Below are positions 1,681-64,000 of a stretch of 64,000 nt of DNA, in pieces (position 1 is the stretch's first letter; every line of letters begins with the position of its first letter). Under the pieces are notes generated by a model. The model made no database searches. It was not told the DNA's origin and saw nothing but the letters and a program-made list of their open reading frames with translations. This DNA is from Octopus vulgaris (Eukaryota): contig OX597827.1 of NCBI GenBank assembly GCA_951406725.2, forward strand, positions 80,476,001 through 80,540,000, read 5' to 3'. A program made the position numbers and the translations under genes.

Positions 1681-1925
1681 CTTTTTGATAATTATATCAT
1701 TGGTTATTCAGTGAGAAAGAGAAAGATGTATTGTTGTAGAAAGATCCATTGTAAGTGCTGCTGTAATGGTGTGACAATGGCTGTTATGGTGATGGAGTAG
1801 TGTAGCACGTCAGGCAGAGAGTCTGCTGCTAGGAGAGGGTTGCATGTGTCACTGAAGTTGTATGTTTTGTGGGAGTACGTCCATCTAATAATATTCTGTG
1901 CATGTATTTATCCTCAAAGATGATG
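1681..1925 (-). other. Conserved non-coding leader (5'UTR) exon, copy A; belongs to a protocadherin gene left of the window
   Basis: ~180-bp core near-identical in 7 copies; ends at AAAAAG|GTAAGT donor (plus-strand acttac 1675-1680); 5' end approximate. Confidence 0.7.
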
Positions 1926-2036
1926 TTTGTTTACTGTTATTCACACACACACACACATCTATATTCAAAGAGCTTCAATATTCAATAGTTAAACATAACT
2001 GCTTGGTTTAATGGCACCAGTAGTGTGAATGTTTCT

Positions 2037-2107
2037 CTTTGTTAGTGATTTTATTCTATATTTCAGTGGGAATCTGATTGGCTGAATGACTTAAGCAGAA
2101 GACCAAT
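2037..2107 (-). promoter_or_regulatory. Candidate promoter module A (CTTTGTTAGTGA motif + ATTGG-N21-CCAAT)
   Basis: ctgattgg 2074-2081 and ccaat 2103-2107; same spacing in all units, just upstream of the leader exon. Confidence 0.6.
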
Positions 2108-2865
2108 GGCAATCTTCTCTTTGATATTGATTTGGTTAACTAAAACAGATTAGAAATTATTTAATCATTGAAGAAAGTGAGATAGTGTGATGTTGATCCA
2201 TTTCCATGTGGATTACTGGCATTAATAAACAGTTTTTATGCTGAAATATATTACTCCTAGAAATTCAGTGTTAGTAATTCTAAATTTGTGTTTACATGAA
2301 TGTTTCAATATGAAAACTTCTACTTTGTCACGAGAATATATAAGATTGAGATTTGTAATTTAGTAGAAATATTGTTCATTGTTAGGTTTTTATGAAATAA
2401 AGAATTATTATCGATTAAACATTATAATTTCATTTCAAGAAACAGCCACATACTAATGATTTGTATATTAAATCACAGATTCTGAGGTAGTAAAAATGAG
2501 AAAGATTATTTTGAAGCCAGGTCCCTAACTGGTACTTACATTAAGAATGAAAGCAAAAACGGTTTTGATTAGACTGATTTCAGAATGTAAAGGGTTGCAT
2601 CTAAAAACTGCAGGGTTTTATGTCCTAGCAACCAGTAGATTCTGCAAATCCTCTACCTTAATAAGGATTTCTAAATTCAGCACAAAACTTCAGAATTTTG
2701 GTATGGAGTATAGTCAATTACATCAATCCCAATATTAGAATGGTACATAAACAAAAATCAGAAGGAAGAGATCTAAAGTTGATGTAGTCAGGATTTGAAC
2801 TCAGATTGTAAGGGGATGTAACTAAATACATATAAACACTATTCAGAAGCATTTTGCCAATCCTT

Positions 2866-3070
2866 TCATCATCATCCTCATTATCATCATTATATGTCTG
2901 TTTTCCATGCTGGCATGAGTGGATAGTTTGACATGATCCAGCAAGCTGTAGGGCTATGCTGAGCTTCAGTATCAGCTTTGGCAGGGTTTCTGTGACTAGA
3001 TGCCCCTTCCTAAGATCAACCAATTTACCATGTGTACAGGGTGCCTTTTTTGTGCCACTGGCATGAGTGA
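2866..3070 (-). mobile_element. Retroelement 3' tail fragment ((CAT)n + TTTCCATGCTGGCATG family)
   Basis: Matches copies at 11237, 38200, 39965, 41245, 42345; the copy at 38200 runs into RTE-like coding remnants. Confidence 0.6.
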
Positions 3071-3982
3071 GGTTGCTAAATGACTCACAAAGTAGATAAA
3101 AAAGAACAGAAAAAGAAAAAGGAAAAGCTCTTGCTACCAAGTAAGGAAGAGTATTCAAAAGTGGTGGTGGGGGTGGCTTTATGCCAAAACTAAAGGGACA
3201 AACATAGGTGTCTTGGTACAGAAGGGATAAGTGGCTGCCCAACAATATACTGGAAGGGGTAAGAGTGGTTGAGAAGGAAAGCTGATGGTACGCTGTTTCA
3301 GAGCAAACTCTCAAATAATAGTAATAAAAATACTGGTTTCTAATTTAGGCAGAAGGGAAGGAGTTAGTCAGTATCATCAACTCCAGGACTGGACTGCTAC
3401 TTTATTCTATCAACACAAAAGAATGAAAGGCAAAGTTAACCCCAATGGGATTAAGAGTAAGAACAAATATTGTAGGGGCAATTTTTTTCCAGTTCTCTAA
3501 GGATTCTGTCAGCACATTGCCTTAATAACAAAAATATTAATAATAACAACAACGTCTAGCATATTGACAAAAGCATAAATTTGATGAAACAGCTGACTGA
3601 ATGAAACCCAGAACATGACTGGTACTATTTCATTGAGAACTGATAGTGATGATGATGATGATAAACTATTGTTATAAACAATATATTTGTGTTTAAAATA
3701 AGGCATGGTTTCAAGAAGTGTAGATATATATTTCTAGTAATTCATGTAAAATAAATATAATTACAGTACAGAAGCTTACATTGATTCGAAGAGAAGTTAA
3801 TGGTTTGCAGAACTTTGTGTTTATTTATCCAAATTATTGCTAATTCATCAACAGCCTGTCTTTACTATATAGCACAGATTAATAAGTAATGAGTGTGTTA
3901 AGTCTGTGTGTGTGTGTGTACTAATATGACTGTTCATCTATTCACATAGCAAAAGGTCGTCGTTGCTTCAACAGCTGTATAA

Positions 3983-4059
3983 TTAGACATGTTTCACTGG
4001 TGTCTCTTCACTGGAATCTTTTGATTTAGATGTATCATTGTTTTTATATATATTTTGAT
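3983..4059 (-). CDS. Pcdh: Protocadherin gene 1, terminal coding exon (DQNIYKNNDTSKSKDSSEETPVKHV*)
   Basis: TTTCAG acceptor, phase 1 matching the upstream donor, homologous exon in all 7 units with mostly synonymous or conservative changes. Confidence 0.8.
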
Positions 4060-5169
4060 CTGAAATTTCAATACAAAGTCAATTTTACAAAATACTTTAA
4101 ATGTTTGGTCTGTAAGAAGCACATGGAAAAAAGAATATAATAAAAACTGAATTCTGAGTACTTATATTTTTAACAAACTGAATATAAATGTAAACTGATT
4201 ATAAAGTATTGGTAACATTATTATATTTATTAATCCTGGTATCAGAGAACACAATATTAGCTTACTTGAACTTTCTGATATTCCTCATCAGTTCTGCCAA
4301 GCCAGATGTTCCTAAGACTGGTGATATACTTTCACTTTATGAAGATATGGACAATAACTTGTCCAGATTCTAAAGCCATACAAGAGAGTCAGCACAGTAA
4401 CTGTGTCATAAGTTCAGTTATTTGTCCCAGCTCATGGTTTTCATGTACCCATCTTCTGAGACAACCAAAAGCTGCACTGACTCAATTTATTATCAATACT
4501 TGTTTTGTGGTAGGTGACTACCTAACTACCGAAAGTGTTCTGCATCTTCCACCATTTATCCATAGATCTGAATAACTGGGCCATGTTTACACTTGTTGAA
4601 GTAAAAACTTTGGTTTCACTTAGGTTGAAATTTAGCCTATCTTCTTATGAGCATGGGACATATCTTTAGTTCTTTGGCTAAAAATGCACAAGTTTTGGAA
4701 TCATGTGTGCATTTAAGCCCACCTACAGAAACAATTGTTCAGTGAAGTTATGTAAGGAGGAGAAAGTTGTCCAAAGATGTACATAAAGTAAATCTCAATA
4801 AAAATGTGCCATCACTAGGTTCTAGTAGGAAATGTAAGCAAATACTCAACAAAAGTGTGGATGGATCATCTATGATGGAGCCCCAATATTAAGACAATCA
4901 CAAACTGAACAGCTCAGTGATGAATGTAAGTATACAAAGCAGTACAAAGTGAGGTACACAATGCCTCATTTTCCTCTCGGCAATAAACACCTGTTTTACG
5001 ACTGGGTGCTGGATTCTACATTGCCCTACATATATAAAGGATGGTCAATAGAAGTTGAAACTAATGGACAATGTAAGGGATTACCAATGACAATGATATT
5101 TACCGTAAGCAAATAAATATCTGCTTATGAAATGATATCAAAGAGAAATGTTGTCAATATAGTATTAAC

Positions 5170-5323
5170 CTGAAACTCCTGGTATTTCTTCGTAATGTTT
5201 CAAGTCTCCTTGTCTACCACTTCTCTTGGATGACATTGTATCTGATGTATAGTTACAAACCATAGTAGCATTATCTTCCACAGCATCATCACTTGATGTC
5301 ACCACAACAGGTTGACAGTATTT
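5170..5323 (-). CDS. Pcdh: Protocadherin gene 1, cytoplasmic exon (KYCQPVVVT...KHYEEIPGVS)
   Basis: TTTGTTTGTCAACAG acceptor, phase 0 in, CAG|GTTAAT donor; 154 nt in all copies. Confidence 0.85.
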
Positions 5324-5493
5324 CTGTTGACAAACAAACGATAAAGAAATGTGAGAAAACACCAAACAATGGAAGTTACAATCAACATGGATAGAGAACA
5401 ATTTAATATTGGAATGTATTATTGAAGTTAAACATATTCAAAGAGATTTCATTGTTCACTTTTACAGAGAGAAAATGTAATGTTTCCACTTAC

Positions 5494-7869
5494 TGGGGTA
5501 GGTTTTGGTAAAGTTCTCGACTGAACTGAAGATTCATATTTGTTCTGTAGCTGACCTTCTGCATAACATTCACTCTTGGATCTCTCAGAATAGATATTCC
5601 GCTTCACCATCTCTTCTGCATTCCTCGACATAGCAACAGAAGTGTTAGTCTGGTACAACAATTGTTTCATCTCTGCTCTACCTTGGTAGGCTGTATTCTT
5701 TGTGGCAGCAGCTGTGTTATCTCTGTGTTTAATACATTTCATAATACACAGCGTTATAGAAACAACAATAGCCACTGATATTATTACTGCTGATGATACA
5801 ATGATAATAACCCATGTCATATGGACCCGACCTGAAGATTGTAAAGGTCCACTTTTCGACATTGGTGAAGTCTCGTTACTAACAGCCAACACCAAAGTGA
5901 CACTAGTTGTTGACGACTGAACTGGACTACCACTGTCCTTCACAACAAACACCAGCTCATAACTTCCAGCATCATTTAGATAAACTTGTCTGGAGAAGGA
6001 TAAAGCACCACTGTGTGAGTTCATACTAAACAACTGTTTATCATTTCCTTGTATGATTGCATATCTGAGGAAAGCATTGTTTCCACTGTCCCCATCAGAC
6101 GCTCTCAAAACTGTGATGTCACTCTTACTCTGCGGATGGTACTGCACATTTAGCGTGTAAGGGTCACTACTAGGATATGTAAAATACGGAGCATTGTCAT
6201 TTTGATCTAGAATCTCAACAACAACATTCGCCGTGTCATTCAGAGATGGGCTTCCATTATCTTTGACAAAAACCTCAAACTTATACACATCTTGTTTCTC
6301 TCTGTCCAATGACATGGTCGCTGAAATGAAGCCATAACTGGTGATGAGAAACGGGAGATTGGATTTTTCTTTACGCAGCAGAGAATATGTGAGTTGTCCA
6401 GCAGATCCAAGATCAGGGTCAGTGGCATTGACAAAACCAATAGGGAAGTCTTTATCTTTGTTTTCGTAGGTGAGGAATTGGAATGTATCTTTGGTAAACT
6501 GTGGTTGTACATCGTTGATGTCAGTCACTTGGATAGAGAGGCTTTTAACACTTTTAAGAGGAGGTAATCCTTTATCTTGACAGGAGACAGGAATGTTATA
6601 GTGTCCTTGTGTTTCTCTGTCCACTGGTTTGTTTAGAATGATTTTATATTCTTTAGATCCCATTGACTGTAGTTTGAATGTATCATGTTTGATATCACAG
6701 CTGACCTCTCCATTTTGTCCCACATCATTGTCAGTGACCATCACATAAGCAATGAAACTACCAACTTTGATGTTTTCAGAGATGGTACCTGTGTTATAAT
6801 TGAGTGCAGAAACATAATCTATATCCATAGAAGGAGGATTGTTGTGCTGGTTGATAACATTTACGAGGACTGTTGCTATGGAACTGAGAGGAGGGTTGCC
6901 TCTATCTCTAGCCTCTATGAACAATTCGTAAGTTTTCTTTTTCCCTAAGTTTGAATATTCCCTTAAGAAAATACTTCCACTGGTTTCATTTAACTGAAAA
7001 TAGCTTTTTGTTACATCTGATGTCTTTCGGCTGAAATGGAAAGTAATTTTACCATTTTCACCAGCATCAGCATCAGTCACAGACAAAACAATGATGGGTT
7101 TAGACTTGTGATGTGCACTTTGTATGGATATATTGTATAGAGGTTTAGAAAATACAGGTGGGTTGTCATTAACATCTGTCACAGAGATATTTATATTCAA
7201 AATACCTTGTTTTGCTGGCGAACCTCCGTCTTTAGCTATGACTTGTAATAAATATGTATCTTTGATTTCTCTGTCCAATGTTTCTTTTAAAACTATTTTA
7301 AGAGAAGAAATACCGTCAGCTCTTTTAGACACTGATAAAGAGAATGGTTCTCCATTCTTTGATTTTAATTTATATTGTATTAAGGAATTTTGAAATCCAA
7401 CATCTTTGTCCATGGCATTTGGTATTGATTGTTTTGTACCTTTAGCTATATTCTCATAAAACTGTATGTTGGTGTTCTTTATGAGAAACTCCGGTTCATG
7501 GTCATTAATATCTTCTATCACTATTTTGACTTTTAATATTTTTGTGAATGATTCCATTTTCTTTATAATAACTTTGACAGTTCTGGAACATTCTTTGTTG
7601 AATGTGCAGAGATCTTCTGCATCCAGTGTCTGAGCAGTGTACAGTTTACCTGTTTTGGTGATGTTAAATAACTGTGCCACCTTTCGTTTGAATTGACTGA
7701 ATGTTATCAAATGTTGGTCAGATGGTTTAACATTGTCTAAAAGTTTAGAATCGGCAGCAATGTCTGCTACATATGTTCCTGGACTTCTCTCTTCTTCCAC
7801 ATGGTAGGTAAGGTCTATGGTCAGGACACAGTGGACCAGTGACAATACAATAGAAAATGACAGGAACAT
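5494..7869 (-). CDS. Pcdh: Protocadherin gene 1, main exon: signal peptide, EC1-EC6, TM, juxtamembrane
   Basis: Cadherin motifs DINDHEP, LDRE, DVNDNPP, DXD; EC1 C-x5-C loop (LDAEDLCTFNKEC); TM WVIIIVSSAVIISVAIVVSITLCIM; donor CCA|GTAAGT at 5493; acceptor TTTCAG|GTTCA with exon start at 7922. Confidence 0.95.
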
Positions 7870-9829
7870 GTTGTTGAAGCTATATGTTTGTTAATGATGC
7901 ACATGTATGTAGAGGATTGAACCTGAAAATGAAATATATTTTCATGAATTATTATAAGACATAAAATCATTTAAAATACTGTAATGTACATTGCTATTGC
8001 AAAATACTTTGCTGACAAGTTGACCTTCTGACCTTAAGACCATTCATCCAAATTCCAAATATCCTTAATCCAGCTTTATTGTGCAAGGAGAACCAAAGTA
8101 AGGAATAAAAATGGTTCCAAAAGCACCTTATCTTTATGGGGTATGGCAATTGCATTCAGCTGTTTGAATGATGACGATTTGGCATAGATGACGGAACCCA
8201 AGACATGACTGTAATTTTTGGCACTGGAGGCACTCACACACACACACATGTGCATGTAACACAGAAATATACACTTACAGACAGACAGATAGATCATAAC
8301 TTATTACTTGAAACAGACTGATATAAACACTTTCCCTCTCCCCGTACACCTAAAGAGAAATATACTCACACACATAAATAGAGAGAGAGAGACAGAGAGA
8401 GAGAGAAGGGGGAGGGAAAGAGATGTGTTTGTGTAATTGGGGTAATTTAATACATTTTCATTCTTCTCTCCCCCACTGTCCTCTCTCCCCAGTTTTTCTG
8501 GTTAAAGGGCTAAAATTGAAATTCTGAGTTAACTCCACTTAGTCAAAGACATATAGGAATCTATTGAGAGAAAATTCTCTCTTTCCCATGTTTCGTCAAT
8601 ATTTCACTTGCTATCATCTACACAAAATGAAGCAGAAAGTTTAATAAAGGTTAGTGGTTATGATTATAAATTAGTTGCCGAGCCAGAATAAAAACGAAAT
8701 TTTCACGGTGTCAGAAGGTCCTGGAGACAAAGTGTCTGATGCCATATAAGTGAGCATCAAATTACTGATGCCAAACAGGCAGGCTCAAAACATCTCATAC
8801 CCTCTTCCTGAATTCTTAAAGAATTGATTCATTGTTACTAACAATCTACACACACATCATCATCATCATCATTTAACATTTATTTTTTGACAGGACTTCC
8901 TGAACCACAAATTTGCATCAAGCTCCAATGTTGGCTCTTGATATGGCTTCTACCGATGGATGCTCTTCATGATGCCAACCACTTTGCAGCCTGTACTGGG
9001 TGCTATTTTCGAGCCACTTTCACCAGTGAAGTCACAAGTAATTTGCACGGCAGATAAGGAAAAGGGGAAAAAGTTTCCATGTCTAATTGTGGGACGGGGA
9101 GTTTTTGAGACGATGGGTGGCTTTATGCTAGTTGTTAAGCTAAAGGATGAATGAGGGACAAGCACAGATGTCTTGCTAATGAGGAGATACATAGGTACCC
9201 TGCATTATATAAGGGTGGGCGGGAGAAGTTGGGAAGAACATAAAGATGGTAGTGACTGTGTGTCAGAATGAACTCAAGGTACAAGATTTAGGTGTGGTTG
9301 AAGTGAAATACCTGTATGTAAAGTGGGTGAGGTGTGAAAGAGAAGCTGTTCAGGACAGATGATAGAAGAGGAGGAAGGGAAATGTTGTGCAAGTTGTATG
9401 AGCATTGAGGAGGGAGATAGAGAAGGACATAATGGTGGGGGACTATAGTGAGTGGGGTATGATGGAGGATATGAGAGAGCATTGAGAATGATAGCAGATA
9501 TGTGAGGTGTCAAGATGGAGTATGTCAGAGGAGATGACTGATGGTACAAAAAAGGTGATGAGTGAAAATATTGTGGGAAGAAATAATAATGAGAATAAAG
9601 AATGGAGGTGGTTCAAGTGGGAGAGAGATAACTGGTGGTGCAAAGAAATGGGGCTGAGTGACATGTATCACTTCTGTTCTCAAGTGATTACAGTCACAGA
9701 ATAGTGCCATGAATAGAGGAGTGATGAGGAAGGCTGGGTGTTGAGGGGAATAAGATGTGAGGGCTGCTTGATAGGGCATCATGGGTTACAAGCATGAACA
9801 GAATGCTTTTAGGACATCATCTTCTCGTT

Positions 9830-10645
9830 GTGATTGACAGGTCTTTTCGAGCACAATGAATCATCAATCATTTTGGTCCCTTTTGTCATATGATCCACGA
9901 GTCTTTAACACCTTCAATATTTCTTCTCGTGTCTTTCTAGGCCTCTCTCTTCCACAAGTTCCAACCACTTGGAGTAATCAGCATTCCTTTATGCAGCTGT
10001 CCACATCTATATGTTTCACGTGGCCAAAAGCCAGCGCCGTCTTCTTTCTTACGCTCTACATTGGATTCCTTTTATCTTCGTTTTTCTCTCAATAACATTA
10101 TTCTACATACACACTGACATCAAAAATACAACAGAGCTCACTAGCTTCCCTCCTCTATAATCTTTATAATATATCTTTTGCATTCAGGGTCCACATCTCA
10201 CTCCCATGTAGCATTTCTATTCGTACACAAGCATAATACAATCTGCCTTTCACTCTGAAAGAATGAGCCTTCATTGGCAACAAAGGCAGGAGCTCTCTCA
10301 AGTTCTTCCATCCTACTCTTATTCTACTAACTATATTTTCAGAATATCCTCTTCTACTGCTACTTAGGTCACCTTGGTAACTAACTCTATCTACTACCTT
10401 GAGGTAGTCTCTGGGGCACCTGAGAAAATATATTTCCCATGAGTCCCTCAGCGTTTATTACCCCTGTACACTTTCCACATCCAAACACTACTTTCTTTGT
10501 TAACCTTCTTGTATTCTACTGCATCTTTTGCGTACCCATAGCTTGCATTTGGCACACCATATGAAATTCCTCCCTGACTCTTCTCACAACATTTAAACAT
10601 ACTGTAGACTACTTCTTCCAAACATCTTGACCTATTTTGCATACC
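9830..10645 (-). mobile_element. Degenerate RTE-like non-LTR retrotransposon fragment
   Basis: Homologous to 29560-30370, whose translation shows RT C-terminal-type motifs; broken frames. Confidence 0.65.
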
Positions 10646-11236
10646 ATTTACTATACAGATGCAACATTCAGTCTTACTTACAACAAAATGAAATGAACGT
10701 TATAACAATACGTTTTTAGACAATAGTTATTGATCGATTCATTTAACAAATATTACACAAACACAGATAATATTGCCTTAACTCAATATAGTCAAAGAAT
10801 AAAACATTTCAATCTACATCATCCAATTAAATATATAAAACAACAAGGACAACATTACTGAAATTACACAGGGATTATTATTTTCTTGTTAACATTAAAT
10901 GTGTTAGAATAATGTCTCAGAAATTCAATGAGATTTAGTAAATCAACATGAGACTTTTGTTATTTATCCCTGAGAAAAGATTTGCAATTTGATTTTGGTG
11001 ATGATGAAGTCACAGCAATCATCAAAAAAGAGTGGTTCTTTATACAGTCTGATTAATTCGGTGACACTATTCCAGTTTTATACTTTCAGTAACTCAGAAA
11101 CCAGTCTTGAATATCTAACACGTATCCTATTATCATATCTTCTGTCACCTCATCTCTCTCCATTGGTTCTTGTCACATTAGGTTTCCTGTTCAATGCCGA
11201 CATGTAGTGATATTTCTATCTATTTCAGAAATAGCA

Positions 11237-11548
11237 TCATCATCATCATCATTTAATGTCCATTTTCCATGCTGGCATGGGTTGGACGGTTTGATTGAGG
11301 ACTGGCAAGCCCAGAGGCTGTACCAGGCTCCAATCTGATCTGGCAAGGTTTCTACAGCCGGATGCCCTTCCTAATGCCAACCATTCCGCCAGTGTAGTGG
11401 GTGCTTTTTACGTGACACTGGAACAAGGGCCAGTCAAGCACTACTGGCATCGACCATGCTTGAATGATGCTTTTTACGTGCCACCGGCACAGAAGCCAGT
11501 CAGGCACTGGCAATGACCACATTCGAATGGTGCTTTTTATGTGCCCTC
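11237..11548 (-). mobile_element. Retroelement/SINE-like 3' tail with internal TTTTTACGTGCCAC repeats
   Basis: (CAT)n tail and family consensus shared with 38200-38520 and 42345-42560. Confidence 0.7.
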
Positions 11549-12194
11549 TTATAGAATCCAAACCTATTGTTCTCTTGATTCCCATCTTTCATCCTCATCA
11601 CAAACTTCTTACACCATCTGTTACACCAATGCTTTTGACATCACAAAGCTATTTCCAAAGTTGAAGGTTCTCTATTGTTTCCTACTCTTGCTTTTTGTTT
11701 ACCCCCCACCCCTAACGTATTACTTTTACAGATGCATTGGCAACATTCATCATCAGCATCATCATTTAGCATCCATTTTCCATGAGTTGGATGGTTTGAC
11801 TGAAAACTGGTGAAGTGGGGAGCTGCCTCAGGCTCCAATCTGATTCCCATTATAATCTTCTCAAATGCTTGAGTTTCTGAATCACACATAAAAGTAGGGA
11901 CCTGCAACCAGTTTCCCCAAAAGTCTCCCTAGTCAGCATCTTTGCTAATATGAGTTACCTGTTCTTATGTACATATCATTTATTAGACTTCTGTGGAAAC
12001 TGGTTCACAAAGAGGCATACTTCCACTGCCATATCTCCCTGCCTTCCGATTATCTTTCATGTCTCTATGAAAAGTTACAGGTTTTAAAAAATTGTCTTTA
12101 CATCTTTTCCAGTAATAATACATAAAATAAAAAAGAAATTCTCCCATAATACCTAATATCTCTTTATAGGCATAGGACAAAAGGGTGAAGACCC

Positions 12195-20205: not shown

Positions 20206-20250
<45 letters not shown>

Positions 20251-52888: not shown

Positions 52889-52988
52889 ACTATTTACATG
52901 GATATATATTTAAATAGCTAGAATTATGTTTATACTGAAACAGAACATAATTGTTTGGGATAATAACATTAGTGATGTGAAGGCTTGG

Positions 52989-53572: not shown

Positions 53573-53652
53573 TTATACATGTTTGACTGGAGTTTCTTCA
53601 CTGGAATCTTTCGACGTAGTTGCATCATTATTCTTCTTATATAAATTTTGAT
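53573..53652 (-). CDS. Pcdh: Protocadherin gene 6, terminal coding exon (DQNLYKKNNDATTSKDSSEETPVKHV*)
   Basis: 80 nt; in-frame 3-nt insertion relative to other copies. Confidence 0.8.
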
Positions 53653-53939
53653 CTGGAATTTAGATTGGAAACATGCATTACAAAATCACAGACTTGCAGA
53701 TTTCATTAATTAACTGCTTAATGAAAAAGAAAAAAATATGCTATAACAAAACATATATTCTGGAGTTTATAAACAGAAAATTTGAGCAACTTGTTATCTC
53801 ATTAGTCAAGAATAGATAAATAATAAATAAAACAGATTTATTCCAGAAATTGTTGACACAAAATATTCCCCCAAAAGTATGAGGGAAAACTGTTGAAATG
53901 AATTCTTCACAACCGACAGTATATTTAATAGTTACTAAC

Positions 53940-54093
53940 CTGATACTCCTGGTATTTCTTCGTAATGTTTCAAGTCTCCGTGTCTACCACTTCTCTTGGA
54001 TGACATTGTATCTGATGTATAGTTACAAACCATAGTAGCATTATCTTCCACAGCATCATCACTTGATGTCACCACAACAGGTTGACAGTATTT
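53940..54093 (-). CDS. Pcdh: Protocadherin gene 6, cytoplasmic exon
   Basis: 154-nt exon; donor GTTAGT. Confidence 0.85.
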
Positions 54094-54264
54094 CTGTTGA
54101 CAAACAAATGATAAAGAAATGTGAGAAGACACCAAACAACGGAAGTTACAATCAACATGGAAAGAGAACAATTTAATATTGGAATGTATTATTGAAGTTA
54201 AAACATATTCAAAGAGATTTCATTGTTCACTTTTACAGAGAGAAAATGTAATGTTTCCACTTAC

Positions 54265-56640
54265 TGGGGTAGGTTTTGGTAAAGTTCTCGACTGAACTGA
54301 AGATTCATATTTGTTCTGTAGCTGACCTTCTGCATAACATTCACTCTTGGATCTCTCAGAATAGATATTCCGCTTCACCATCTCTTCTGCATTCCTCGAC
54401 ATAGCAACAGAAGTGTTAGTCTGGTACAACAATTGTTTCATCTCTGCTCTACCTTGGTAGGCTGTATTCTTTGTGGCAGCAGCTGTGTTATCTCTGTGTT
54501 TAATACATTTCATAATACACAGCGTTATAGAAACAACAATAGCCACTGATATTATTACTGCTGATGATACAATGATAATAACCCATGTCATATGGACCCG
54601 ACCTGAAGATTGTAAAGGTCCACTCTTCGACATTGGTGATGTCTCGTTACTAACAGCCAATACCAAAGTGACACTAGTTGTTGACGACTGAACTGGACTA
54701 CCACTGTCCTTCACAACAAACACCAGCTCATAACTTCCAGCATCATTTAGATAAACTTGTCTGGAGAAGGATAAAGCACCACTGTGTGAGTTCATACTAA
54801 ACAACTGTTTAGCATTTCCTTGTATGATTGCATATCTGAGGAAAGCATTGTTTCCACTGTCCCCATCAGACGCTCTCAAAACTGTGATGTCACTCTTACT
54901 CTGCGGATGGTACTGCACATTTAGCGTGTAAGGGTCACTACTAGGATATGTAAAATACGGAGCATTGTCATTTTGATCTAGAATCTCAACAACAACATTC
55001 GCCGTGTCATTCAGAGATGGGCTTCCATTATCTTTGACAAAAACCTCAAACTTATACACATCTTGTTTCTCTCTGTCCAATGACATGGTTGCTGAAATGA
55101 AGCCATAACTGGTGATGAGAAATGGGAGATTGGATTTTTCTTTACGCAGCAGAGAATATGTGAGTTGTCCAGCAGATCCAAGATCAGGGTCAGTGGCATT
55201 GACAAAACCAATAGGGAAGTCTTTATCTTTGTTTTCGTAGGTGAGGAATTGGAATGTATCTTTGGTAAACTGTGGTTGTACATCGTTGATGTCAGTCACT
55301 TGGATAGAGAGGCTTTTAACACTTTTAAGAGGAGGTAGTCCTTTATCTTGACAGGAGACAGGAATGTTATAGTGTCCTTGTGTTTCTCTGTCCACTGGTT
55401 TGTTTAGAATGATTTTATATTCTTTAGATCCCATTGACTGTAGTTTGAATGTATCATGTTTGATATCACAGCTGACCTCTCCATTTTGTCCCACATCATT
55501 GTCAGTGACCATCACATAAGCAATGAAACTACCAACTTTGATGTTTTCAGAAATGGTAGCTGTGTTGTCATCGATTGCATTAACATAATCAATATCAATA
55601 GATGGAGGATTGTTGTGTTGGTTGATGACATTTACCAAAACAGTTGCTATAGAAATGAGAGGAGGGCTGCCCCCGTCTCTGGCTTCAATAAACAATTCAT
55701 AGGTTTTCTTTTTACCCAGATTTGAATATTCCCTTAACAGAATATTTCCACTGGTTTCGTTCAATTGAAAATAGCTTTTTGCTATATCTGATGTCTTTGG
55801 ACTAAAATGGAAAGTAATTTTACCATTTTCACCAGCATCAACATCAGTCACAGACAAAACAATGATGGGTTTAGACCTGTGATGTTTACTTTGTATGGAT
55901 ATATTATACAGAGGTTTAGAAAATACAGGTGGGTTGTCATTTTCATCTGTTACAGAAATATTTATATTCAAAATCCCTTGTTTTGCTGGTGACCCTCCAT
56001 CTTTAGCTATGACCTGTAATAAATATGTATCTTTGATTTCTCTGTCCAATGATTCTTTTAAAACTATTTTAAGAGAAGAAATTCCATCAGCTCTTTTAGA
56101 CACTGACAGAGAGAATGGTTCTCCATTCTTTGATTTTAATTTATATTGTATTAAGGAATTTTGAAATCCTATATCCTTGTCCATTGCGTTTGGTAGTGAC
56201 ACTTTGGCTCCATCACGATCATGTTCACCAAACTGTATATTAACTACCCTCATAGGAAACTCTGGTTGATGGTCATTAATGTCTTCTATGATTATTTTGA
56301 TTTTTAATATTTTTGAAACACTGGTTCCTTTATTGACAACAACTTTCATAGTTCTGGAACATTCTTTGTTGAATGTGCAGAGATCTTCTGCATCCAGTGT
56401 CTGAGCAGTGTACAGTTTACCTGTTTTGGTGATGTTAAATAACTGTGCCACCTTTCGTTTGAATTGACTGAATGTTATCAAATGTTGGTCAGATGGTTTA
56501 ACATTGTCTAAAAGTTTAGAATCGGCAGCAATGTCTGCTACATATGTTCCTGGACTTCTTTCTTCTTCCACGTGGTAGGTAAGGTCTATGGTCAGGACAC
56601 AGTGGACCAGTGACAATACAATGGACAATGACAGGAACAT
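54265..56640 (-). CDS. Pcdh: Protocadherin gene 6, main exon
   Basis: Six cadherin repeats + TM; acceptor with exon start at 56692. Confidence 0.95.
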
Positions 56641-59600
56641 ATTGTTCTGGAGTGATGGTACACTTCAGGCTATCAAGATATGTTGTTTGAACCTAAAACA
56701 GAAATATAGTTCATTAAACAATTTTTATCAAAAATAAACTACAACTTAAAATCCACAGGTAACATTGAAATAATAAGAGGATATGAGACTCATCCTTTAT
56801 GGCAGTTTACTTATAGATTGAAACATATATAAAATGGCTTCAATGTACTCAACATGACTGAAAAAAAATCAAAAACTAGTTGTCAGGGAAAGTGGTATTA
56901 GATAAGGTTCTTCAATACCAAAAACATTTTCCATACGAAGAATTTCAGAGATGTATATACACATGAAGGGTTTTGATCTGAGATCATGTTCTGTAACTAA
57001 AATGATTGCAGTGTCAAAGACATTTGTTGACTCAAAAGTAAACTACAAATGCATGCTTCATTTAAACATTTATTTGATAGCTGTTCAGTGAGATGCAGAG
57101 GGAAAAATGAAAAAGAAATGTCTGTTAGAATTGCAACATGATGCAGTTGTGAGTAATGGAAATTTTGACAGCATATTAAAATAGGGATTTAAGTGAAGTT
57201 TCTTAGCCTGAGTGTTTCTTAGTAACTAACTTGTCTTCCAAGCTGCAATTGCATAAGAAAGTATATGTTCCAAAAATGGATGCATACAAAGCTATGAATT
57301 CATGTGTCAACTGAAAACAGCAAGATGCACACCTACCAAGACCATGAAATATGAACCATTATTTTCATTATACAAAAGAAGTACAAATGGGTCATCAAAA
57401 GACTTGTAATGGCTACTTTAAGTGGTAGAGAATGTTCCATGGTTGGTGTTCTATCACTTAAAGGACTGAATATCTAATTCCATTGCAAATTATATCAGAC
57501 TGCAATTTGGTTACACTACATTTCACTGGCCGGCTGCCATGTACTTTGTTCACCAACCAATGAGGGATTAGCAGTGCATAACTTACTTTGGAGTTCATAA
57601 GCAGAGGAGCATAACTTTGCTTTTTCATGGGCTTTCAAGATGAAACAACTTAAACAAATGCACTCTTACATCAGAGATGAATTCAATCGTACATCAAGAC
57701 ATATACGTACTCACTGGTATGCATAACCATGCATACATATGTGCACATGCACAAGCATGTGTACAGCTATACACACTCATACGGATATATTCTTCTGCAC
57801 ACACACACACACACACACTTATACATGTGTGCACAGGCAAAGCCTTTCTAACTGGAATTTTCTGTCACAAAAGTCATACGAAAATACCAAGTCCACGAGA
57901 GTCTATTATTTATTATTCGAGGAAATAATCTTTTCAGATTATGTGGCTTACTTAACCAGAGCTAACATTTTGTAACACCAACATAAAGGCCTTTTTACCA
58001 CTAGCTTAGCTGGAGTGTGTGCTGCCTGGGGCACCCCTTCAGTTTTCCACCCGTGGGCCGCCATAAAAGTGTCACCTGGGGTTGCCCACCCCATCTGCCC
58101 ACCATCTATGCTAGGGCTTTTTACCAAATATAATATTCTTTTACTGTTCACAATGGTAATAATTAGTGGCCGGTGATCAAGGAGAAAATGTATTTCATCC
58201 GTTATTTTCTACAAATGAAAAGTTCTTAAATTAAATGTGCATCTTTCTAGAATACTATGAATATATATTTTATACGACTTCAAAATCCTCAGAGCCTGAC
58301 AAAATTACAAATATGTATTTGAAACATAAATGGCCAGAAGAGGTGGTTGCCATCTCCAGCATCTTCAACTATTTATACCAACACTACTAATACTCCAGCA
58401 TGTAGAGACTGGGTAGAATTATAATCCAATCTAACAGATGCAACATTACACAGATTTACTCTTCTCAGATGTAAACCTAAAAACAAACAAAAAAAATACA
58501 AAATCATAGGAAGATTCCTTATTGTCTCGACCGAAACATTTTTCTTTCAAATTTACTACATGCATTTCGAACACTACACCGAACACCTCTACTCTCAAAC
58601 CTCACACGGTGTCTGATGATTTAAGCAACAGTAATCAAAACACATTATGATCACCACCACTAATTTAAGCAAAACATTTGAATCAAAGATTTATTTTTAT
58701 AACTTTTATCTTTAGTAAAAGAGAAATAAACTTCAGTTTAGTCTGACATTCTCATTCCATAGTTTTTCTTTGAAACATCTTGGTGAAACTGCTTTAACAG
58801 AGATGAAGTCAGAGGTATGTTCTTTATCACAGGAAATGTTATCCTTAACAATAATAATAGTTTCAATACTTCAGGAACCATTCCAAAAGGTTCCACAGCA
58901 TCGTCCTTAACCATAGACTACCTACATATCCCTTACTTCTATAGCTGTCTTGATTCTCGTCTGTTCAATTCGAAGAAGGATCAAATTGATCCATTCATAT
59001 TTCTTACCATTTTCCGCTGATTAAAATTAGAGTGGTAAGGAAAATGGGGTGGGTTGAACAGGAAGGACTCAGTAGTGTCTCATGTTACAAAGGTGCATAC
59101 GGCCAGATAAACAGGGTGGAGAATGGGTGAAGGAGAAATAGCTTGAGATGGACAGTATCAGTGAAATAAAGAGAGGTGAGGGGTGTCATGGAAATGAAGA
59201 GGGACCAGTGAGAGGGTGTTGAAGTGGTGAAGAAGCTACCAGGGCTGGGCAAAATATTTGTATAAATGCTTGGATGATTGGGTTTGTGTAATTGTTTGTA
59301 TTTATGGCACATTTGTGCACCTAAATAGGTGCCTGGCATCTTGCAGGGATTTTTCTCAACCAGTAAGACAAACTTTCTCCATGTTTCGTGACTTCTAACA
59401 CATTATTTTACACATCTAGAGCATTTCTTTTCTTTTCTTCCTTCAAAACCATTTTAAATGAAGAAATTTATGCCATCTCCTTTAATCCATTGTCAAACAC
59501 AAATCTCAGTCAAGCTTTCAGTTTCCACATAATGTGAGATTAGAGATTATCTCTTTGTTCCGAAACTACTTGTGATTATGTTTAGAAAGCAAAGTCACTA

Positions 59601-60826
59601 ATGAAGATATGACTGATCCCAATCATAAACTGGAGTCACATTTGCTTTAAAAATCACAGACAAAGTAAATGTCTTCAGAGAATATATTAAAGGAATTAAA
59701 CTGTAGAATCTAACTTAATAACAAACAATTTAAACCAATGTTTACAATTAGGGCTGCCGAATGATAACGAGCAACTCTCGTTGCAATTGAATGACAAGAA
59801 AATAAGTAACAAAAGATGGTTAAGACGTGAATTAAGTATCTTATGAGATTCAAGGCTAAAGTGAATTAGTTTAAGATTTCCATGACTAGAAATTATTAAT
59901 AGTTAGAGTTTAAGTAATTCATACAAGAAGCTATATGTTTAAATATTATTATGAAAGATATCAGACAATACAGTGATGATGATGATGTTGATAGGTTGCT
60001 TTTAATTTGATATGTAAATCGAATTTATAAATTAAATACACTCTACTTTTGATTTATGTCACATATTTATTACAATTATCAAAATATCTGATAAATACTA
60101 AGGATGCAGTATAGAATATGTTAGAAAATTTGGACAGAAATTATACAGAAAAAAATAAGAAAAAGCAGCTGAATTAAGATGACATGTTTGAAATTCCAAT
60201 TTTCGGACAAACACAGACAAATAATAATGAAAGATATGCAAAATATAATGGTATTGTCTATATATACATACATAAATATATATATATATATATTCAGTTA
60301 CAAACATAGCTAGTCCTTTTATTGTCTTCTGCAGCACGACACCATTGTTGTTCACTCGTCACACATTTTAATCTTAATATGTCTGCCATTATCCCTGAGC
60401 AAAATTTGTAACACAACATCACTTCATCATTTCTAATAATCTACACACTTACAGCCATTTCAAACTCTTGGCAAAATATTGCTAAATATCTTTTTATTTA
60501 ATATCTTCACATCTCTTTCGCATACTATTTGCTATATATTCACAACAAAAAGACACACTCCATCACTACATTATATACACAGTTGCTTATTGTTACTGAC
60601 CAATATATAAAACAAATATTATTTAGGAACGCATAATATTGTTTCAATGAAGTAAAGTCTAAATATTAATCATTTCAAACAGCATTTTCCAATTAATTTT
60701 CATATAAAACAATATGGACGCTATTATATTGTCTGTATTAGTTATTGTTTGTGGAGTAATATCTCACAGATTTGGTGAGTGATAATAAATTAAAATGAGA
60801 TTATAAAAGATTAAATAGAAACTTAC

Positions 60827-61075
60827 CTCTTTAATAATTATATCATTGGTTATTCAGTGAGAAAGAGAAAGATGTATTGTTGTAGAAAGATCCATTGTAA
60901 GTGCTGCTGTAATGGTGTGACAATGGCTGTTATGGTGATGGAGTAGTGTAGCACGTCAGGCAGAGAGTCTGCTGCTAGGAGAGGGTTGCATGTGTCACTG
61001 AAGTTGTATGTTTTGTGGGAGTACGTCCACCTAATAGTATTCTGTGCATGTATTTAGCCTTAAAGAAGATGTTTA
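60827..61075 (-). other. Leader exon copy G (for gene 6)
   Basis: Conserved core, AG|GTAAGT donor at 60826. Confidence 0.7.
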
Positions 61076-61174
61076 CTATTTACATGGATATATATTTAAA
61101 TAGCTAGAATTATGTTTATACTGAAACAGAACACAATTGTTTGGGATAATAACATTAGTGATGTGAATGCTTGG

Positions 61175-61244
61175 CTTTGTTAGTGAATTGTTGTGTGTTT
61201 TATCCCGAATCTGATTGGTCGAGTGATCGAAACAGGAGACCAAT
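61175..61244 (-). promoter_or_regulatory. Candidate promoter module G
   Basis: ctgattgg 61211-61218; ccaat 61240-61244. Confidence 0.6.
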
Positions 61245-61758
61245 GAAGCTGCTCCCTTCATATTGATTTCTTTCCCTGATGAACATGGTCATATATTTAG
61301 AGGTTGTGATGATCATGCTTTCCCACAGTGGCTGCCGGCTTAAGTTATAGCATTTATAGTTAATAATAATACTCCAAAGATGTCAGGTAACTTCATCTCA
61401 TGGATAAATAAAAAATCTCCCTTATGTACTTTTACACCATCAGAAGGAGAATTACACAAGCCCTGCAAAGGACAGAGTAAACATGGCAAACCATAGAGAA
61501 TATAATCTCTGGTTATTATTATCAAGAACACATAGAAAATTTGGTGTACTATGGAGTGCAATAAACATTCTTTCATTATATTAAAAACCTGACTTATTTT
61601 GCAATCAAGGGATAATTAAAAAAGAAAAAAATAACTTATCTATATTATCTTTTTGCCTTTGATAATCTGTATTCTTATATAGAGTCTATAGCAAAATGTG
61701 TGTGTGTGTGTGTGTGTGTGTGTACTGAAGAGTCTATATCTTGTATTTACATGGAGTA

Positions 61759-61835
61759 TTATACATGTTTGACTGGAGTTTCTTCACTGGAATCTTTCGA
61801 CGTAGTTGCATCATTATTCTTATATAAATTTTGAT
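61759..61835 (-). CDS. Pcdh: Protocadherin gene 7, terminal coding exon (DQNLYKNNDATTSKDSSEETPVKHV*)
   Basis: TTCCAG acceptor, 77 nt to stop. Confidence 0.8.
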
Positions 61836-62169
61836 CTGGAATTTAGATTGGAAACATGCATTACAAAATCACAGACTTGCAGATTTCATTAATTAATTAA
61901 TGGAAAAGAAAAAAAATATGCTATAACAAAACATATATTCTGGAGTTTATAAACAGAAAATTTGAGCAACTTGTTATCTCATTAGTTAAGAATAGATAAA
62001 TAATAAATAAAATACATTTATTCCAGAAATTGTTGACACAAAATATTCCCCAGAAACATGGGGGTAAAACGTAGAAATGAATTCTTCACAACTGACAATA
62101 TATCTGTTAGAAATGGCTGTTACTAAAAATCCACACTTGAGGTGAAAAAACAACATAATAGTTGCTAAC

Positions 62170-62323
62170 CTGAAACTCCTGGTATTTCTTCATAATGTTT
62201 CAAGTCTCCATGTCTACCACTTCTCTTGGATGACATTGTATCTGATGTATAGTTACAAACCATAGTAGCATTATCTTCCACAGCATCATCACTTGATGTC
62301 ACCACAACAGGTTGACAGTATTT
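62170..62323 (-). CDS. Pcdh: Protocadherin gene 7, cytoplasmic exon
   Basis: 154-nt exon; donor GTTAGC. Confidence 0.85.
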
Positions 62324-62496
62324 CTGTTGACAAACAAACGAAAAGAAATGTGAGAGAAGACACAAAACGATGGAAGTTACAATCAACATGGATAGAGAAC
62401 AATTTAATATTGGAATGTATTATTGAAGTTAAAACATATTCAAAGAGATTTCATTGTTCACTTTTACAGAGAGAAAAATGTAATGTTTCCACTTAC

Positions 62497-64000
62497 TGGG
62501 GTAGGTTTTGGTAAAGTTCTCGACTGAACTGAAGATTCATATTTGTTCTGTAGCTGACCTTCTGCATAACATTCACTCTTGGATCTCTCAGAATAGATAT
62601 TCCGCTTCACCATCTCTTCTGCATTCCTCGACATAGCAGCAACAGAAGTGTTAGTCTGGTACAACAATTGTTTCATCTCTGCTCTACCTTGGTAGGTTGT
62701 ATTCTTTGTGGAAGCAGCTGTGTTATCTCTGTGTTTAATACATTTCATAATACACAGCGTTATAGAAACAACAATAGCCACTGATATTATTACTGCTGAT
62801 GATACAATGATAATAACCCATGTCATATGGACCCGACCTGAAGATTGTAAAGGTCCACTCTTCGACATTGGTGACGTCTCGTTACTAACAGCCAATACCA
62901 AAGTGATACTAGTTGTTGACGACTGAACTGGACTACCACTGTCCTTCACAACAAACACCAGCTCATAACTTCCAGCATCATTTAGATAAACTTGTCTGGA
63001 GAAGGATAAAGCACCACTGTGTGAGTTCATACTAAACAGCTGTTTATCATTTCCTTGTTTGATTGCATATCTGAGGAAAGCATTGTTTCCACTGTCCCCA
63101 TCAGACGCTCTCAAAACTGTGATGTCACTCTTACTCTGCGGATGGTACTGCACATTTAGCGTGTAAGGGTCACTACTAGGATATGTAAAATACGGAGCAT
63201 TGTCATTTTGATCTAGAATCTCCACAACAACATTCGCTGTGTCATTCAGAGATGGGCTTCCATTGTCTTTGACAAAAACCTCAAACTTATACACATCTTG
63301 TTTCTCTCTGTCCAATGACATGGTCGCTGAAATGAAGCCATAACTGGTGATGAGAAATGGGAGATTGGATTTTTCTTTACGCAGCAGAGAATATGTGAGT
63401 TGTCCAGCAGATCCAAGATCAGGGTCAGTGGCATTGACAAAACCAATAGGGAAGTCTTTATCTTTGTTTTCGTAGGTGAGGAATTGGAATGTATCTTTGG
63501 TAAACTGTGGTTGTACATCGTTGATGTCAGTCACTTGGATAGAGAGGCTTTTAACACTTTTAAGAGGAGGTAATCCTTTATCTTGACAGGAGACAGGAAT
63601 GTTATAGTGTCCTTGTGTTTCTCTGTCCACTGGTTTGTTTAGAATGATTTTATATTCTTTAGATCCCATTGACTGTAGTTTGAATGTATCATGTTTGATA
63701 TCACAGCTGACCTCCCCATTTTGTCCCACATCATTGTCAGTGACCATCACATAAGCAATGAAACTACCAACTTTGGTATCTTCAGAAATGGTAGCTGTGT
63801 TGTCATTGATTGCAGAAACATAATCAATATCAATAGATGGAGGATTGTTGTGTTGATTGATAACATTTACAAGAACTGTTGCTATGGAACTAAAGGGTGG
63901 GCTGCCCCCATCTCTGGCTTCTATAAACAATTCGTAGGTTTTCTTTTTACCCAGACTTGAATATTTACTTAACAAAATAGTGCCACTTGTTTCATTTAAT
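62497..64000 (-). CDS. Pcdh: Protocadherin gene 7, main exon (partial, mid-EC3 onward)
   Basis: Frame open to the window edge (LNETSGTILLSKY...); EC4-EC6, TM; donor at 62496. Confidence 0.93.

What the first reader, a model, noticed from the sequence alone, without database searches (positions are those of the whole stretch)
1681..64000. Tandem protocadherin array: self-contained units with constant and hypervariable regions
Seen: seven head-to-tail minus-strand units 8-11.5 kb apart. Each has its own candidate promoter, leader and cytoplasmic exons. aa ~12-97 (EC1) and EC4-to-cytoplasm are almost invariant, while aa ~98-365 vary. Known: vertebrate clustered Pcdh-alpha/gamma splice variable exons to one shared set of constant exons, and coleoid cephalopods expanded Pcdhs independently in tandem arrays. 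Inference: here the variable/constant logic is achieved by keeping the constant parts identical in every copy, a convergent design for a neuronal identity code. The expansion itself is known; this fine architecture is the part worth examining.
Basis: partly seen in the sequence, partly recalled or inferred. Interest (0 to 1): 0.8.

Follow-up and report, generated by a model that had tools for sequence, protein, structure and literature searches.

The report
Octopus protocadherins homogenised around variable cassette
Twenty-seven neighbouring octopus protocadherin genes are nearly identical in DNA except for one middle stretch, most likely because they keep copying each other around it, and that stretch is predicted (untested) to give each protein its own binding identity, as the same region does in vertebrate neurons.

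Summary
Observation confirmed and extended. The window holds 7 of 27 head-to-tail, self-contained protocadherin genes (octopus, G000:C14). EC1 (aa 17-97) and EC4-to-exon-2 are near-identical even at synonymous sites (dS 0.02-0.06) and in intron 1. The stretch aa 98-368 has dS about 0.5-0.7 in EC2-EC3.

Against the Argonauta array, the constant part shows 40 fixed differences and no shared polymorphism. The variable part shows none fixed and 88 shared. This points to regional gene conversion rather than protein constraint. Four neighbouring sub-arrays share the EC3/EC4 boundary.

The pattern is known from fish clustered protocadherins, and conversion was suggested for cephalopods at whole-gene level. 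I did not find the domain-level map in print.

Two additions. (1) The published 8-14 Ma 'second expansion' is reproduced by averaging converted and unconverted parts, so it may be an artefact. (2) The EC3-EC4 calcium motif is absent from 116 of 116 octopod protocadherins but present in 39 of 39 vertebrate units.

The neuronal identity code is untested: dN/dS is below 1, and there are no binding or per-copy expression data. The scan noted similar conversion in a receptor array of another genome.

The parts
3983..13800 (-). Unit 1 (g19): promoter/leader block (leader exon ends at 13378), large exon 7922-5494 (ATG 7869), exon 2 5323-5170, exon 3 about 4069-3983
   Evidence: (joints 5323-5494, 4066-5177, 7875-13378)
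14280..22160 (-). Unit 2 (g18): leader ends about 21717, ATG 17376, large exon ends 15001, exon 2 14829-14676, stop about 14280
22651..33410 (-). Unit 3 (g17): leader ends about 32989, ATG 25658, large exon ends 23283, exon 2 23112-22959, stop about 22651
33926..44600 (-). Unit 4 (g16), carrying the ancient 'class B' variable cassette: leader ends about 44140, ATG 37060, large exon ends 34688, exon 2 34516-34363, stop about 33926
   Evidence: (joints 34516-34688, 34002-34363)
45634..53080 (-). Unit 5 (g15): leader ends about 52639, ATG 48552, large exon ends 46177, exon 2 46004-45851, stop about 45634
53573..61270 (-). Unit 6 (g14): leader ends about 60826, ATG 56640, large exon ends 54265, exon 2 54093-53940, stop about 53573
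61759..64000 (-). Unit 7 (g13), 3' part only: large exon ends 62497, exon 2 62323-62170, stop about 61759. Its start (outside the window) has a 1-base insertion at codon 3 in this assembly
1380..2140 (-). Promoter/leader block of the next gene (g20, outside the window); leader exon ends about 1680
7579..7821 (-). Homogenised EC1 tract, aa 17-97 (unit 1 coordinates); dS 0.055, dN 0.0008 over 26 copies
6766..7578 (-). Variable cassette, aa 98-368: EC1 strands F-G, EC2, EC3, EC4 strand A; dS 0.53-0.68 up to the end of EC3 (0.19 in EC4 strand A); mosaic among copies
7429..7482 (-). Variability hotspot, aa 130-147 (EC2 strand A, AB loop, start of B); predicted specificity surface
6832..6852 (-). 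EC3-EC4 linker NQHNNPP, lacking the DxNDN calcium motif (EC3 also lacks its DRE-type motif)
5170..6765 (-). Homogenised tract from EC4 strand B through EC5, EC6, transmembrane and juxtamembrane segments, the 170-nt intron 1 and exon 2; dS 0.016-0.046, intron diversity 0.019
13378..13547 (-). Homogenised non-coding leader exon (diversity 0.01-0.05 per 30-nt bin) with TGACGT; CCAAT boxes upstream

Best explanation
This is part of a 27-gene tandem array of self-contained octopus protocadherins in which the leader exon, most of EC1 and everything from EC4 to the end of exon 2 are near-identical in DNA, most likely through repeated regional gene conversion, while the EC1(F-G)-EC2-EC3 cassette escapes, is reshuffled between copies and is predicted to set each protein's binding specificity. 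Shown: the architecture, the DNA-level homogeneity, genus-specific fixation of the constant part, the age and mosaicism of the cassette, and the missing EC3-EC4 calcium motifs. Inferred (about 0.9): the identical tracts act as homology arms for conversion and unequal crossover, which sweeps new mutations through all copies and swaps cassettes between promoters. Inferred (about 0.55): selection removes conversions that erase differences in the cassette, because EC2 strand A/AB loop/B is the specificity surface, giving a common stalk and cytoplasmic tail with different recognition heads. Untested: homophilic binding, stochastic or sparse neuronal expression, and a bend at EC3-EC4.
For: (1) Over 26 copies dS is 0.055 (EC1 aa 17-97), 0.58, 0.53 and 0.68 (EC1 end, EC2, EC3), and 0.016-0.046 (EC4b to cytoplasm); intron 1 diversity is 0.019 against 0.47 in intron 2. 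(2) The divergent neighbour g28 differs from the 26 at pS 0.85 (signal peptide) and 0.52 (EC1) and has its own exon 2, yet pS is 0.009-0.073 in EC4b-cytoplasm. (3) 27 Octopus vs 22 Argonauta hians array proteins: constant part 40 fixed differences and 0 shared polymorphic columns of 420 (0.7-0.9% within, 10.6% between genera); variable part 0 fixed and 88 shared of 271. The non-array neighbour gene diverged 12.5% over the same constant region, so that region is not unusually constrained. (4) Trees: Argonauta monophyly is rejected for the variable part (p-AU 3e-49). The variable-part clades are rejected for the constant part (p-AU 4e-75 and 2e-7; these groups were taken from the variable tree). 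(5) Mosaicism: PHI-type statistic 0.297 vs 0.403, 0 of 1000 permutations as low. Cassette identity is uncorrelated with promoter or intron-2 identity; g13/g14 share 96-97% flanks but only 86% of the cassette. (6) Four more sub-arrays (18 of 21, 11 of 12, 23 of 25 and 9 of 12 fetched copies intact and used) all have EC4-EC6 homogenised and EC2-EC3 variable. GC3 is 0.07-0.17 higher in the converted part, against 0.04 in 21 dispersed genes. (7) Specificity hint: aa 130-147 is the most variable element in both genera (site variability rho 0.54). In 12 non-array orthologue pairs it differs 8.3% between orthologues and 52.9% between paralogues; windows starting at 130-135 are the top 6 of 631 on a score chosen afterwards. 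In vertebrate delta-protocadherin structures the EC2 A-B-E-D face is the trans interface (PMC7082078, passage).
Against: dN/dS is below 1 everywhere, also in the hotspot (pN 0.31, pS 0.54 in 22 class-A copies), so positive selection is not shown. The variable region may be simply too diverged to convert, with EC2-EC3 also the less conserved domains among dispersed genes (52-56% identity vs 72-75% for EC5-EC6). By the paralogue/orthologue ratio the window at 130 ranks only 39 of 631. Much variation in EC3 lies on strands D-E and the EF loop, off the vertebrate C-F-G interface face. The EC3-EC4 calcium motifs that rigidify the vertebrate EC1-4 unit are missing, so the vertebrate dimer geometry may not apply. 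Published single-cell data give about 21 PCDH genes per neuron, some ubiquitous and some cell-type-enriched (PMC9712504, passages), which is not sparse stochastic choice. No good CTCF-like site lies in the promoter blocks (3-4 mismatches of 14 to a recalled consensus). Argonauta was compared at protein level only, from annotated models. 6 of 27 copies carry 1-2 nt frameshifts in this assembly.
Confidence: 0.8

Rival explanations
1. Recent tandem duplication followed by purifying selection on EC1 and EC4-cytoplasm and rapid adaptive change in EC2-EC3 (the published reading of a recent 8-14 Ma expansion).
For: Whole-exon JC distance among the 27 copies averages 0.069, about 9.6 Ma at the rate 0.0036 quoted, matching the 8-14 Ma burst in PMC9795677 (passages). 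Some units did duplicate recently (g13/g14, g01/g02 flanks 93-98% identical), and many variable-region clades are genus-specific.
Against: Selection on protein cannot equalise synonymous sites and an intron. dS, not only dN, is about tenfold higher in the cassette. The cassette classes predate the Octopus-Argonauta split, whose fossil minimum is about 29 Ma (PMC12682272, passage). Introns and intergenic DNA between most copies are barely alignable.
Confidence: 0.05
2. Conversion is real, but the variable cassette is a neutral by-product: once divergence passed a threshold it stopped converting, and the proteins act as redundant adhesion molecules or cell-type markers, not as an identity code.
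For: dN/dS below 1 in the cassette. EC2-EC3 are less conserved among dispersed paralogues too. EC1 is homogenised in only 2 of 5 sub-arrays. Neurons express many PCDHs, some by cell type. The closest copies differ by only 10 residues in EC1-4.
Against: The EC3/EC4 boundary recurs in all five sub-arrays and in vertebrates (PMC4978886, PMC1852091). The cassette does recombine yet stays diverse. The hotspot is conserved between orthologues and divergent between paralogues. Mouse beta6/beta8 are strictly homophilic at 92% identity (PMC8901172, passage), and the median here is 90%.
Confidence: 0.35
3. Assembly or polishing artefact: reads from similar copies overwrote each other in the constant tracts.
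For: 6 of 27 copies have small frameshifts, a sign of local assembly trouble. An O. bimaculoides gene model (P0157) lacks the constant stretch, as if collapsed.
Against: Separately annotated O. sinensis and Argonauta proteins show the same layout, Argonauta with its own constant sequence. In two intron-covering runs (kind not on record) the constant tract assembles as single contigs with depth about 965 vs 20-40 and about 155-161 vs 6-8 for unique intronic contigs; this fits roughly 20-25 copies sharing the same words, though depth is not a copy count.
Confidence: 0.02

Closest known systems
Regional gene conversion in teleost clustered protocadherins (fugu Pcdh2 alpha/gamma subclusters, PMC1852091; zebrafish and Xenopus, PMC4978886; passages read)
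   Same: Paralogues in a subcluster share a 3' part that is about 99% identical with a sharp boundary in EC4-EC5; EC2-EC3 escape; each subcluster has its own converted sequence; GC3 is raised in the converted part.
   Different: Here the genes are complete units. The converted tract runs through an intron and a cytoplasmic exon and so replaces the shared constant exons. A second tract covers EC1 and a third the non-coding leader. The family expanded independently of vertebrates.
Coleoid clustered protocadherins (PMC9068888, PMC9795677, PMC6339937; passages read)
   Same: Chromosome-14 sub-arrays of head-to-tail multi-exon genes made by full gene duplication. A 27-gene subcluster is listed for O. 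bimaculoides (whether it is the orthologous one was not tested). Homogenisation by gene conversion is suggested at whole-gene level.
   Different: The passages I read give no domain-level map, no cross-genus test and no mention of the EC3-EC4 linker. PMC9795677 reads the high similarity as an 8-14 Ma expansion.
Mammalian Pcdh-alpha/gamma and Pcdh-beta clusters (PMC7811963, passages read)
   Same: One promoter per gene; one large exon from signal peptide to juxtamembrane region; 6 EC domains; beta genes are self-contained.
   Different: Alpha/gamma splice to one shared set of constant exons and beta has none, whereas each gene here carries its own two cytoplasmic exons. No good CTCF-type promoter site was found. 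The EC3-EC4 calcium motifs are absent.
Cadherins with calcium-free linkers (Drosophila DE- and DN-cadherin; PMC8325961, passages read)
   Same: An inter-repeat linker lacking calcium ligands next to the repeats that carry specificity.
   Different: Different family and linker (EC2-EC3 or EC7-EC8 there, EC3-EC4 here); bending is shown there and only predicted here.

Membership tests
Coleoid clustered protocadherins | Signal peptide, 6 cadherin repeats, transmembrane segment, short tail; closest relatives are cephalopod protocadherins | tested here: met
   (best hits Octopus and Argonauta protocadherins, 79-94% identity)
Coleoid clustered protocadherins | Head-to-tail multi-exon genes from full gene duplication, no shared exons | tested here: met
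   own exon 2 in 28 of 28 units and own exon 3 in 26 of 26 core units, own leader block in 27 of 27. Splicing to a neighbour's exons cannot be excluded with contigs
Vertebrate clustered protocadherins (alpha/gamma) | Variable exons spliced to one common set of constant exons | tested here: not met
   cytoplasmic exons repeat in every unit
Vertebrate clustered protocadherins (alpha/gamma) | Conserved promoter element that binds CTCF | tested here: inconclusive
   best match 3-4 mismatches of 14 to a recalled CTCF consensus in 28 blocks; conserved CCAAT and TGACGT instead; no binding data
Vertebrate clustered protocadherins (alpha/gamma) | Canonical calcium-binding linkers through EC1-EC4 | tested here: not met
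   EC3-EC4 DxND in 0 of 116 octopod proteins (other four linkers 116 of 116) vs 39 of 39 in-register vertebrate units
Vertebrate clustered protocadherins (alpha/gamma) | Strictly homophilic antiparallel EC1-4 trans dimers | not testable with these tools
Vertebrate clustered protocadherins (alpha/gamma) | Stochastic combinatorial expression in single neurons | not testable with these tools
   only merged contigs available; PMC9712504 reports about 21 PCDH per neuron
Regional gene conversion of protocadherin clusters | Synonymous (and intronic) homogenisation limited to part of the gene, with EC2-EC3 escaping | tested here: met
Regional gene conversion of protocadherin clusters | Lineage-specific fixation in the converted part and discordant trees | tested here: met
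   (protein level for Argonauta)
Regional gene conversion of protocadherin clusters | Raised GC3 in converted tracts | tested here: met
   +0.07 to +0.17 in five arrays vs +0.04 (sd 0.04) in 21 dispersed genes; weakest array overlaps the control spread

The most novel reading that the evidence does not exclude
Coleoids built a neuronal barcode independently of vertebrates, using gene conversion in place of shared constant exons. Homogenised DNA arms keep one stalk and tail per sub-array and shuffle ancient EC2-EC3 recognition cassettes between promoters. A calcium-free EC3-EC4 hinge, lying at the conversion boundary, separates the variable head from the common stalk, so these proteins pair in a geometry unlike the vertebrate straight EC1-4 dimer. 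The 'recent burst' of octopus protocadherins is then largely an old array disguised by conversion.
Probability: 0.3. Interest if true: 0.85.

Novelty: new variant of a known kind. Interest (0 to 1): 0.62.

Why it matters
Whether cephalopod protocadherins work as a self-recognition code is an open question that so far rests on gene counts. This map names the testable parts: an 18-residue candidate specificity segment in EC2, natural pairs that differ only in the cassette, and a linker whose calcium motifs are missing, which predicts a different structure. It shows vertebrates and octopods converging on the same evolutionary pattern (C-terminal half homogenised, EC2-EC3 spared) with a different gene layout. 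It warns that whole-gene distances misdate these arrays, and that reads from the constant tracts cannot be assigned to single genes.

Tried and rejected
Complex prediction of an EC1-4 homodimer: tool not available, nothing folded, so no verdict on binding.

AlphaFold monomer model (pLDDT 87.7, pTM 0.58; lower confidence, 72, at the EC3-EC4 linker block vs 91-93 at the other two) matches vertebrate EC1-4 structures with TM about 0.6-0.7 and rmsd 6-10 A. I used it only for strand positions; it is no evidence of a bend.

Positive selection: not found by pairwise counts; no site model was run.

Conversion declining with genomic distance: no clear trend (rho 0.09, p 0.08).

mRNA-mediated conversion: rejected because intron 1 is homogenised.

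Run search: no RNA holder listed on record. Contig depth was not used to rank expression.

Representative search was dominated by long Fat/Dachsous-like proteins and gave only one bivalve and a few cephalopod relatives.

Literature: 10 searches found no paper whose title, abstract or read passages describe domain-level conversion or the EC3-EC4 linker in cephalopods. Albertin 2015 was not held, Wang and Ragsdale 2017 and Noonan 2004 were not read, and the real supplement of PMC9068888 was not available as text; any of these may bear on novelty.

An early count double-entered one Argonauta unit; corrected.


Full report
OBSERVATION. The window contains six complete minus-strand ORFs of 802-806 aa and the 3' part of a seventh, each a signal peptide, six cadherin repeats, a transmembrane segment and a tail. 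ATG spacing is 8.1-11.5 kb. The best protein hits are annotated Octopus vulgaris, O. sinensis and Argonauta hians protocadherins, so the animal is an octopus, most likely O. vulgaris.

THE WHOLE ARRAY. The window lies at G000:C14:80476001-80540000. 27 copies (g01-g27) share EC1 at 97-100%, followed by a divergent terminal gene g28 and a more distant g29. Each unit has a promoter/leader block 2-10 kb upstream (27 of 27), one large exon of 792 codons, a roughly 170-nt intron, a 154-nt exon 2, a variable intron 2 and an exon 3. Contigs from runs guessed to be RNA join 5323-5494 (CT..AC, three of three such runs), 4066-5177 (one run) and leader to coding exon (three runs, with 44 letters of another copy's UTR between). 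The intron-covering run X15 shows none of these joints; one search gives the same picture for unit 4. These contigs merge paralogues, so they support the exon structure, not expression of single copies. 6 of 27 copies have small frameshifts in this assembly.

THE CONSTANCY IS IN THE DNA. Over 26 copies (g27 and g28 set aside) dS is 0.055 for aa 17-97, 0.58 for the end of EC1, 0.53 for EC2, 0.68 for EC3, 0.19 for EC4 strand A and 0.016-0.046 from there to the cytoplasm. Intron 1 has diversity 0.019 and exon 2 0.017; diversity jumps to 0.47 just past the exon-2 donor. The non-coding leader exon is a third homogenised tract (0.01-0.05). Selection on protein cannot do this, and an mRNA template would not carry intron 1. 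Gene g28 is the clearest internal case: pS 0.85 in the signal peptide, 0.52 in EC1 and its own exon 2, yet 0.009-0.073 in EC4b-cytoplasm.

CROSS-GENUS TEST. I compared 27 Octopus copies with 22 Argonauta array proteins (plus 14 O. sinensis and 1 O. bimaculoides units in the trees; 15 of the 24 members of the main Octopus cluster were listed). The constant part has 40 fixed differences and 0 shared polymorphic columns of 420; the variable part has 0 fixed and 88 shared of 271. The single-copy neighbour g29/P0015 diverged 12.5% over the constant region and 8.5% over the variable one, so the constant region changes at an ordinary rate between genera while staying uniform within each. In the variable-region tree two ancient classes each hold both genera, and Argonauta monophyly is rejected (p-AU 3e-49). 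In the constant-region tree the genera separate, and the class-B group and the terminal orthologues are rejected (p-AU 4e-75, 2e-7; quick trees, LG+G4, groups read from the variable tree). This is concerted evolution confined to part of the gene. Within each class many clades are genus-specific, so duplication and partial conversion also continued in the cassette.

SHUFFLING. Nearest neighbours change from segment to segment of the cassette, and incompatibility rises with distance (0.27 to 0.50; PHI-type 0 of 1000 permutations). Cassette identity does not follow promoter or intron-2 identity (Mantel r -0.07 and -0.09), and units with 93-98% identical flanks have cassettes only 86-91% identical. 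I infer that exchanges resolve in the identical tracts and move cassettes between units.

GENERALITY. An EC5 search (150 of 1177 candidates scored) revealed four more sub-arrays. In all four, EC4-EC6 is homogenised and EC2-EC3 is not; EC1 is homogenised in two of the five arrays (copies without a long open frame were dropped: 3, 1, 2 and 3). GC3 is 0.07-0.17 higher in the converted part, against 0.04 in 21 dispersed genes. An assembly artefact is unlikely: Argonauta and O. sinensis models show the same layout, and in two intron-covering runs the constant tract forms single contigs at about 25 times the depth of unique ones (depth is only a rough guide).

DATING. Whole-exon JC distance averages 0.069 (constant 0.010, variable 0.191). 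With the rate 0.0036 quoted in 10.1101/573493 and PMC13282606 (passages) this gives about 9.6 Ma. PMC9795677 reports an 8-14 Ma second expansion of the clustered group by whole-gene JC/2r (passages; its r is not printed there, I assume the same value, and it used other octopus species). The cassette classes predate a split with a fossil minimum of about 29 Ma (PMC12682272, passage). The recent burst is therefore likely, at least in part, an averaging artefact. This step is inference.

FUNCTION. On the predicted strands the cassette spans EC1 F-G, EC2, EC3 and EC4 A. Variation peaks at aa 130-147 (EC2 A, AB loop, B) in both genera (rho 0.54). In an independent set, 12 non-array Octopus-Argonauta orthologue pairs, that segment differs 8.3% between orthologues and 52.9% between paralogues, ratio 6.4 against 2.8-3.8 elsewhere. 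Windows starting at 130-135 are the top six of 631 on a post-hoc score, though the window at 130 is 39th by plain ratio. In vertebrate structures the EC2 A-B-E-D face binds the EC3 C-F-G face (PMC7082078, passage), and 92%-identical isoforms are strictly homophilic (PMC8901172, passage); the copies here are 80-98% identical in EC1-4, median 90%. Against: pN/pS is 0.31/0.54 even at the hotspot, EC3 variation lies partly off the vertebrate face, neurons are reported to express about 21 PCDHs with some cell-type enrichment (PMC9712504, passages), and no good CTCF-like site was found (recalled consensus). I put the specificity role at about 0.55 and a vertebrate-like stochastic code lower.

A DIFFERENCE FROM VERTEBRATES. 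The EC3-EC4 linker reads NQHNNPP. The DxND motif is present at four other linkers in 116 of 116 octopod proteins but at this linker in 0 of 116, and EC3 has a D-x-E motif in 4 of 116 (motif definitions recalled). One cuttlefish protein agrees, two bivalve units are partly degenerate, and 39 of 39 in-register vertebrate units are canonical. Calcium-free linkers bend in Drosophila cadherins (PMC8325961, passages). The linker sits at the conversion boundary, which suggests a variable head on a common stalk.

WHAT IS KNOWN. PMC9068888 (passages) states that coleoid diversity arose by full gene duplication and suggests homogenisation through gene conversion; PMC6339937 (passages) says the same. PMC1852091 (passages) describes fugu paralogues with over 99% identical 3' parts and a sharp EC4-EC5 boundary, and PMC4978886 (passages) reports EC2-EC3 escaping conversion. 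PMC7811963 and PMC5106212 (passages) give the vertebrate layout and interface. PMC13218726 (passages) adds only counts. Ten searches showed no domain-level analysis for cephalopods, but Albertin 2015, Wang and Ragsdale 2017, Noonan 2004 and the main supplements were not seen. The scan's own notes held two unrelated receptor-array cases of regional conversion and nothing on this genome.

VERDICT. The feature is real and its cause is well supported. It is a new variant of a known kind: the vertebrate pattern of regional conversion, recurring in an independently expanded family, extended through cytoplasmic exons so that it stands in for shared constant exons, and combined with a lost calcium site. 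Interest 0.62; 0.85 if the barcode and hinge readings hold (probability about 0.3).

Noticed in passing
window 6832-6852 and all octopod protocadherins fetched: The EC3-EC4 linker lacks DxND in 116 of 116 octopod proteins and an EC3 D-x-E motif is present in only 4 of 116. One cuttlefish protein (P0249) is the same; two bivalve units (P0400) are partly degenerate; 39 of 39 vertebrate units are canonical.
   Followed up: partly
G000:C14 79.17-79.43, 79.46-79.60, 80.01-80.26 and 81.37-81.50 Mb: Four further sub-arrays, each with its own homogenised EC4-EC6; EC1 is homogenised only in the first of them.
   Followed up: yes
leader exon, e.g. window 13378-13547: An upstream ATG context that opens a short reading frame (13 codons in the copy read) is present in 27 of 27 leaders, with TGACGT in 27 of 27 and 2-5 CCAAT boxes; possible translational control.
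   Followed up: no
window 49999-55765 vs 58161-64000: A 5.8-kb, 95%-identical block whose edge falls inside a coding exon; a recent unit duplication or long conversion among g13-g15.
   Followed up: partly
G000:C14 80540869, 80550695, 80560253, 80606417, 80615800, 80627535: Six array copies in two runs of three carry 1-2 nt frameshifts without in-frame stops; pseudogenes or assembly errors. g01 has a 108-nt in-frame deletion in its tail.
   Followed up: partly
G000:C14 80369-80371 kb, 80387-80388 kb, 80682 kb, 80695 kb: Broken or partial protocadherin pieces at both ends of the array, some with near-identical constant sequence.
   Followed up: no
G000:C14 80401468 (g27) and 80381266 (g28): Terminal genes with their own divergent exon 2; Argonauta P0006 and P0013 have similar tails, suggesting fixed terminal members reminiscent of vertebrate C-type genes.
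   Followed up: partly
G000:C14 80546265-80547074, 80678467-80679780, 80709763-80710548: ORFs that look like LINE reverse-transcriptase fragments (from the sequence only); very high-depth SINE-like repeats at window about 11230-12700 and 38100-42800.
   Followed up: no
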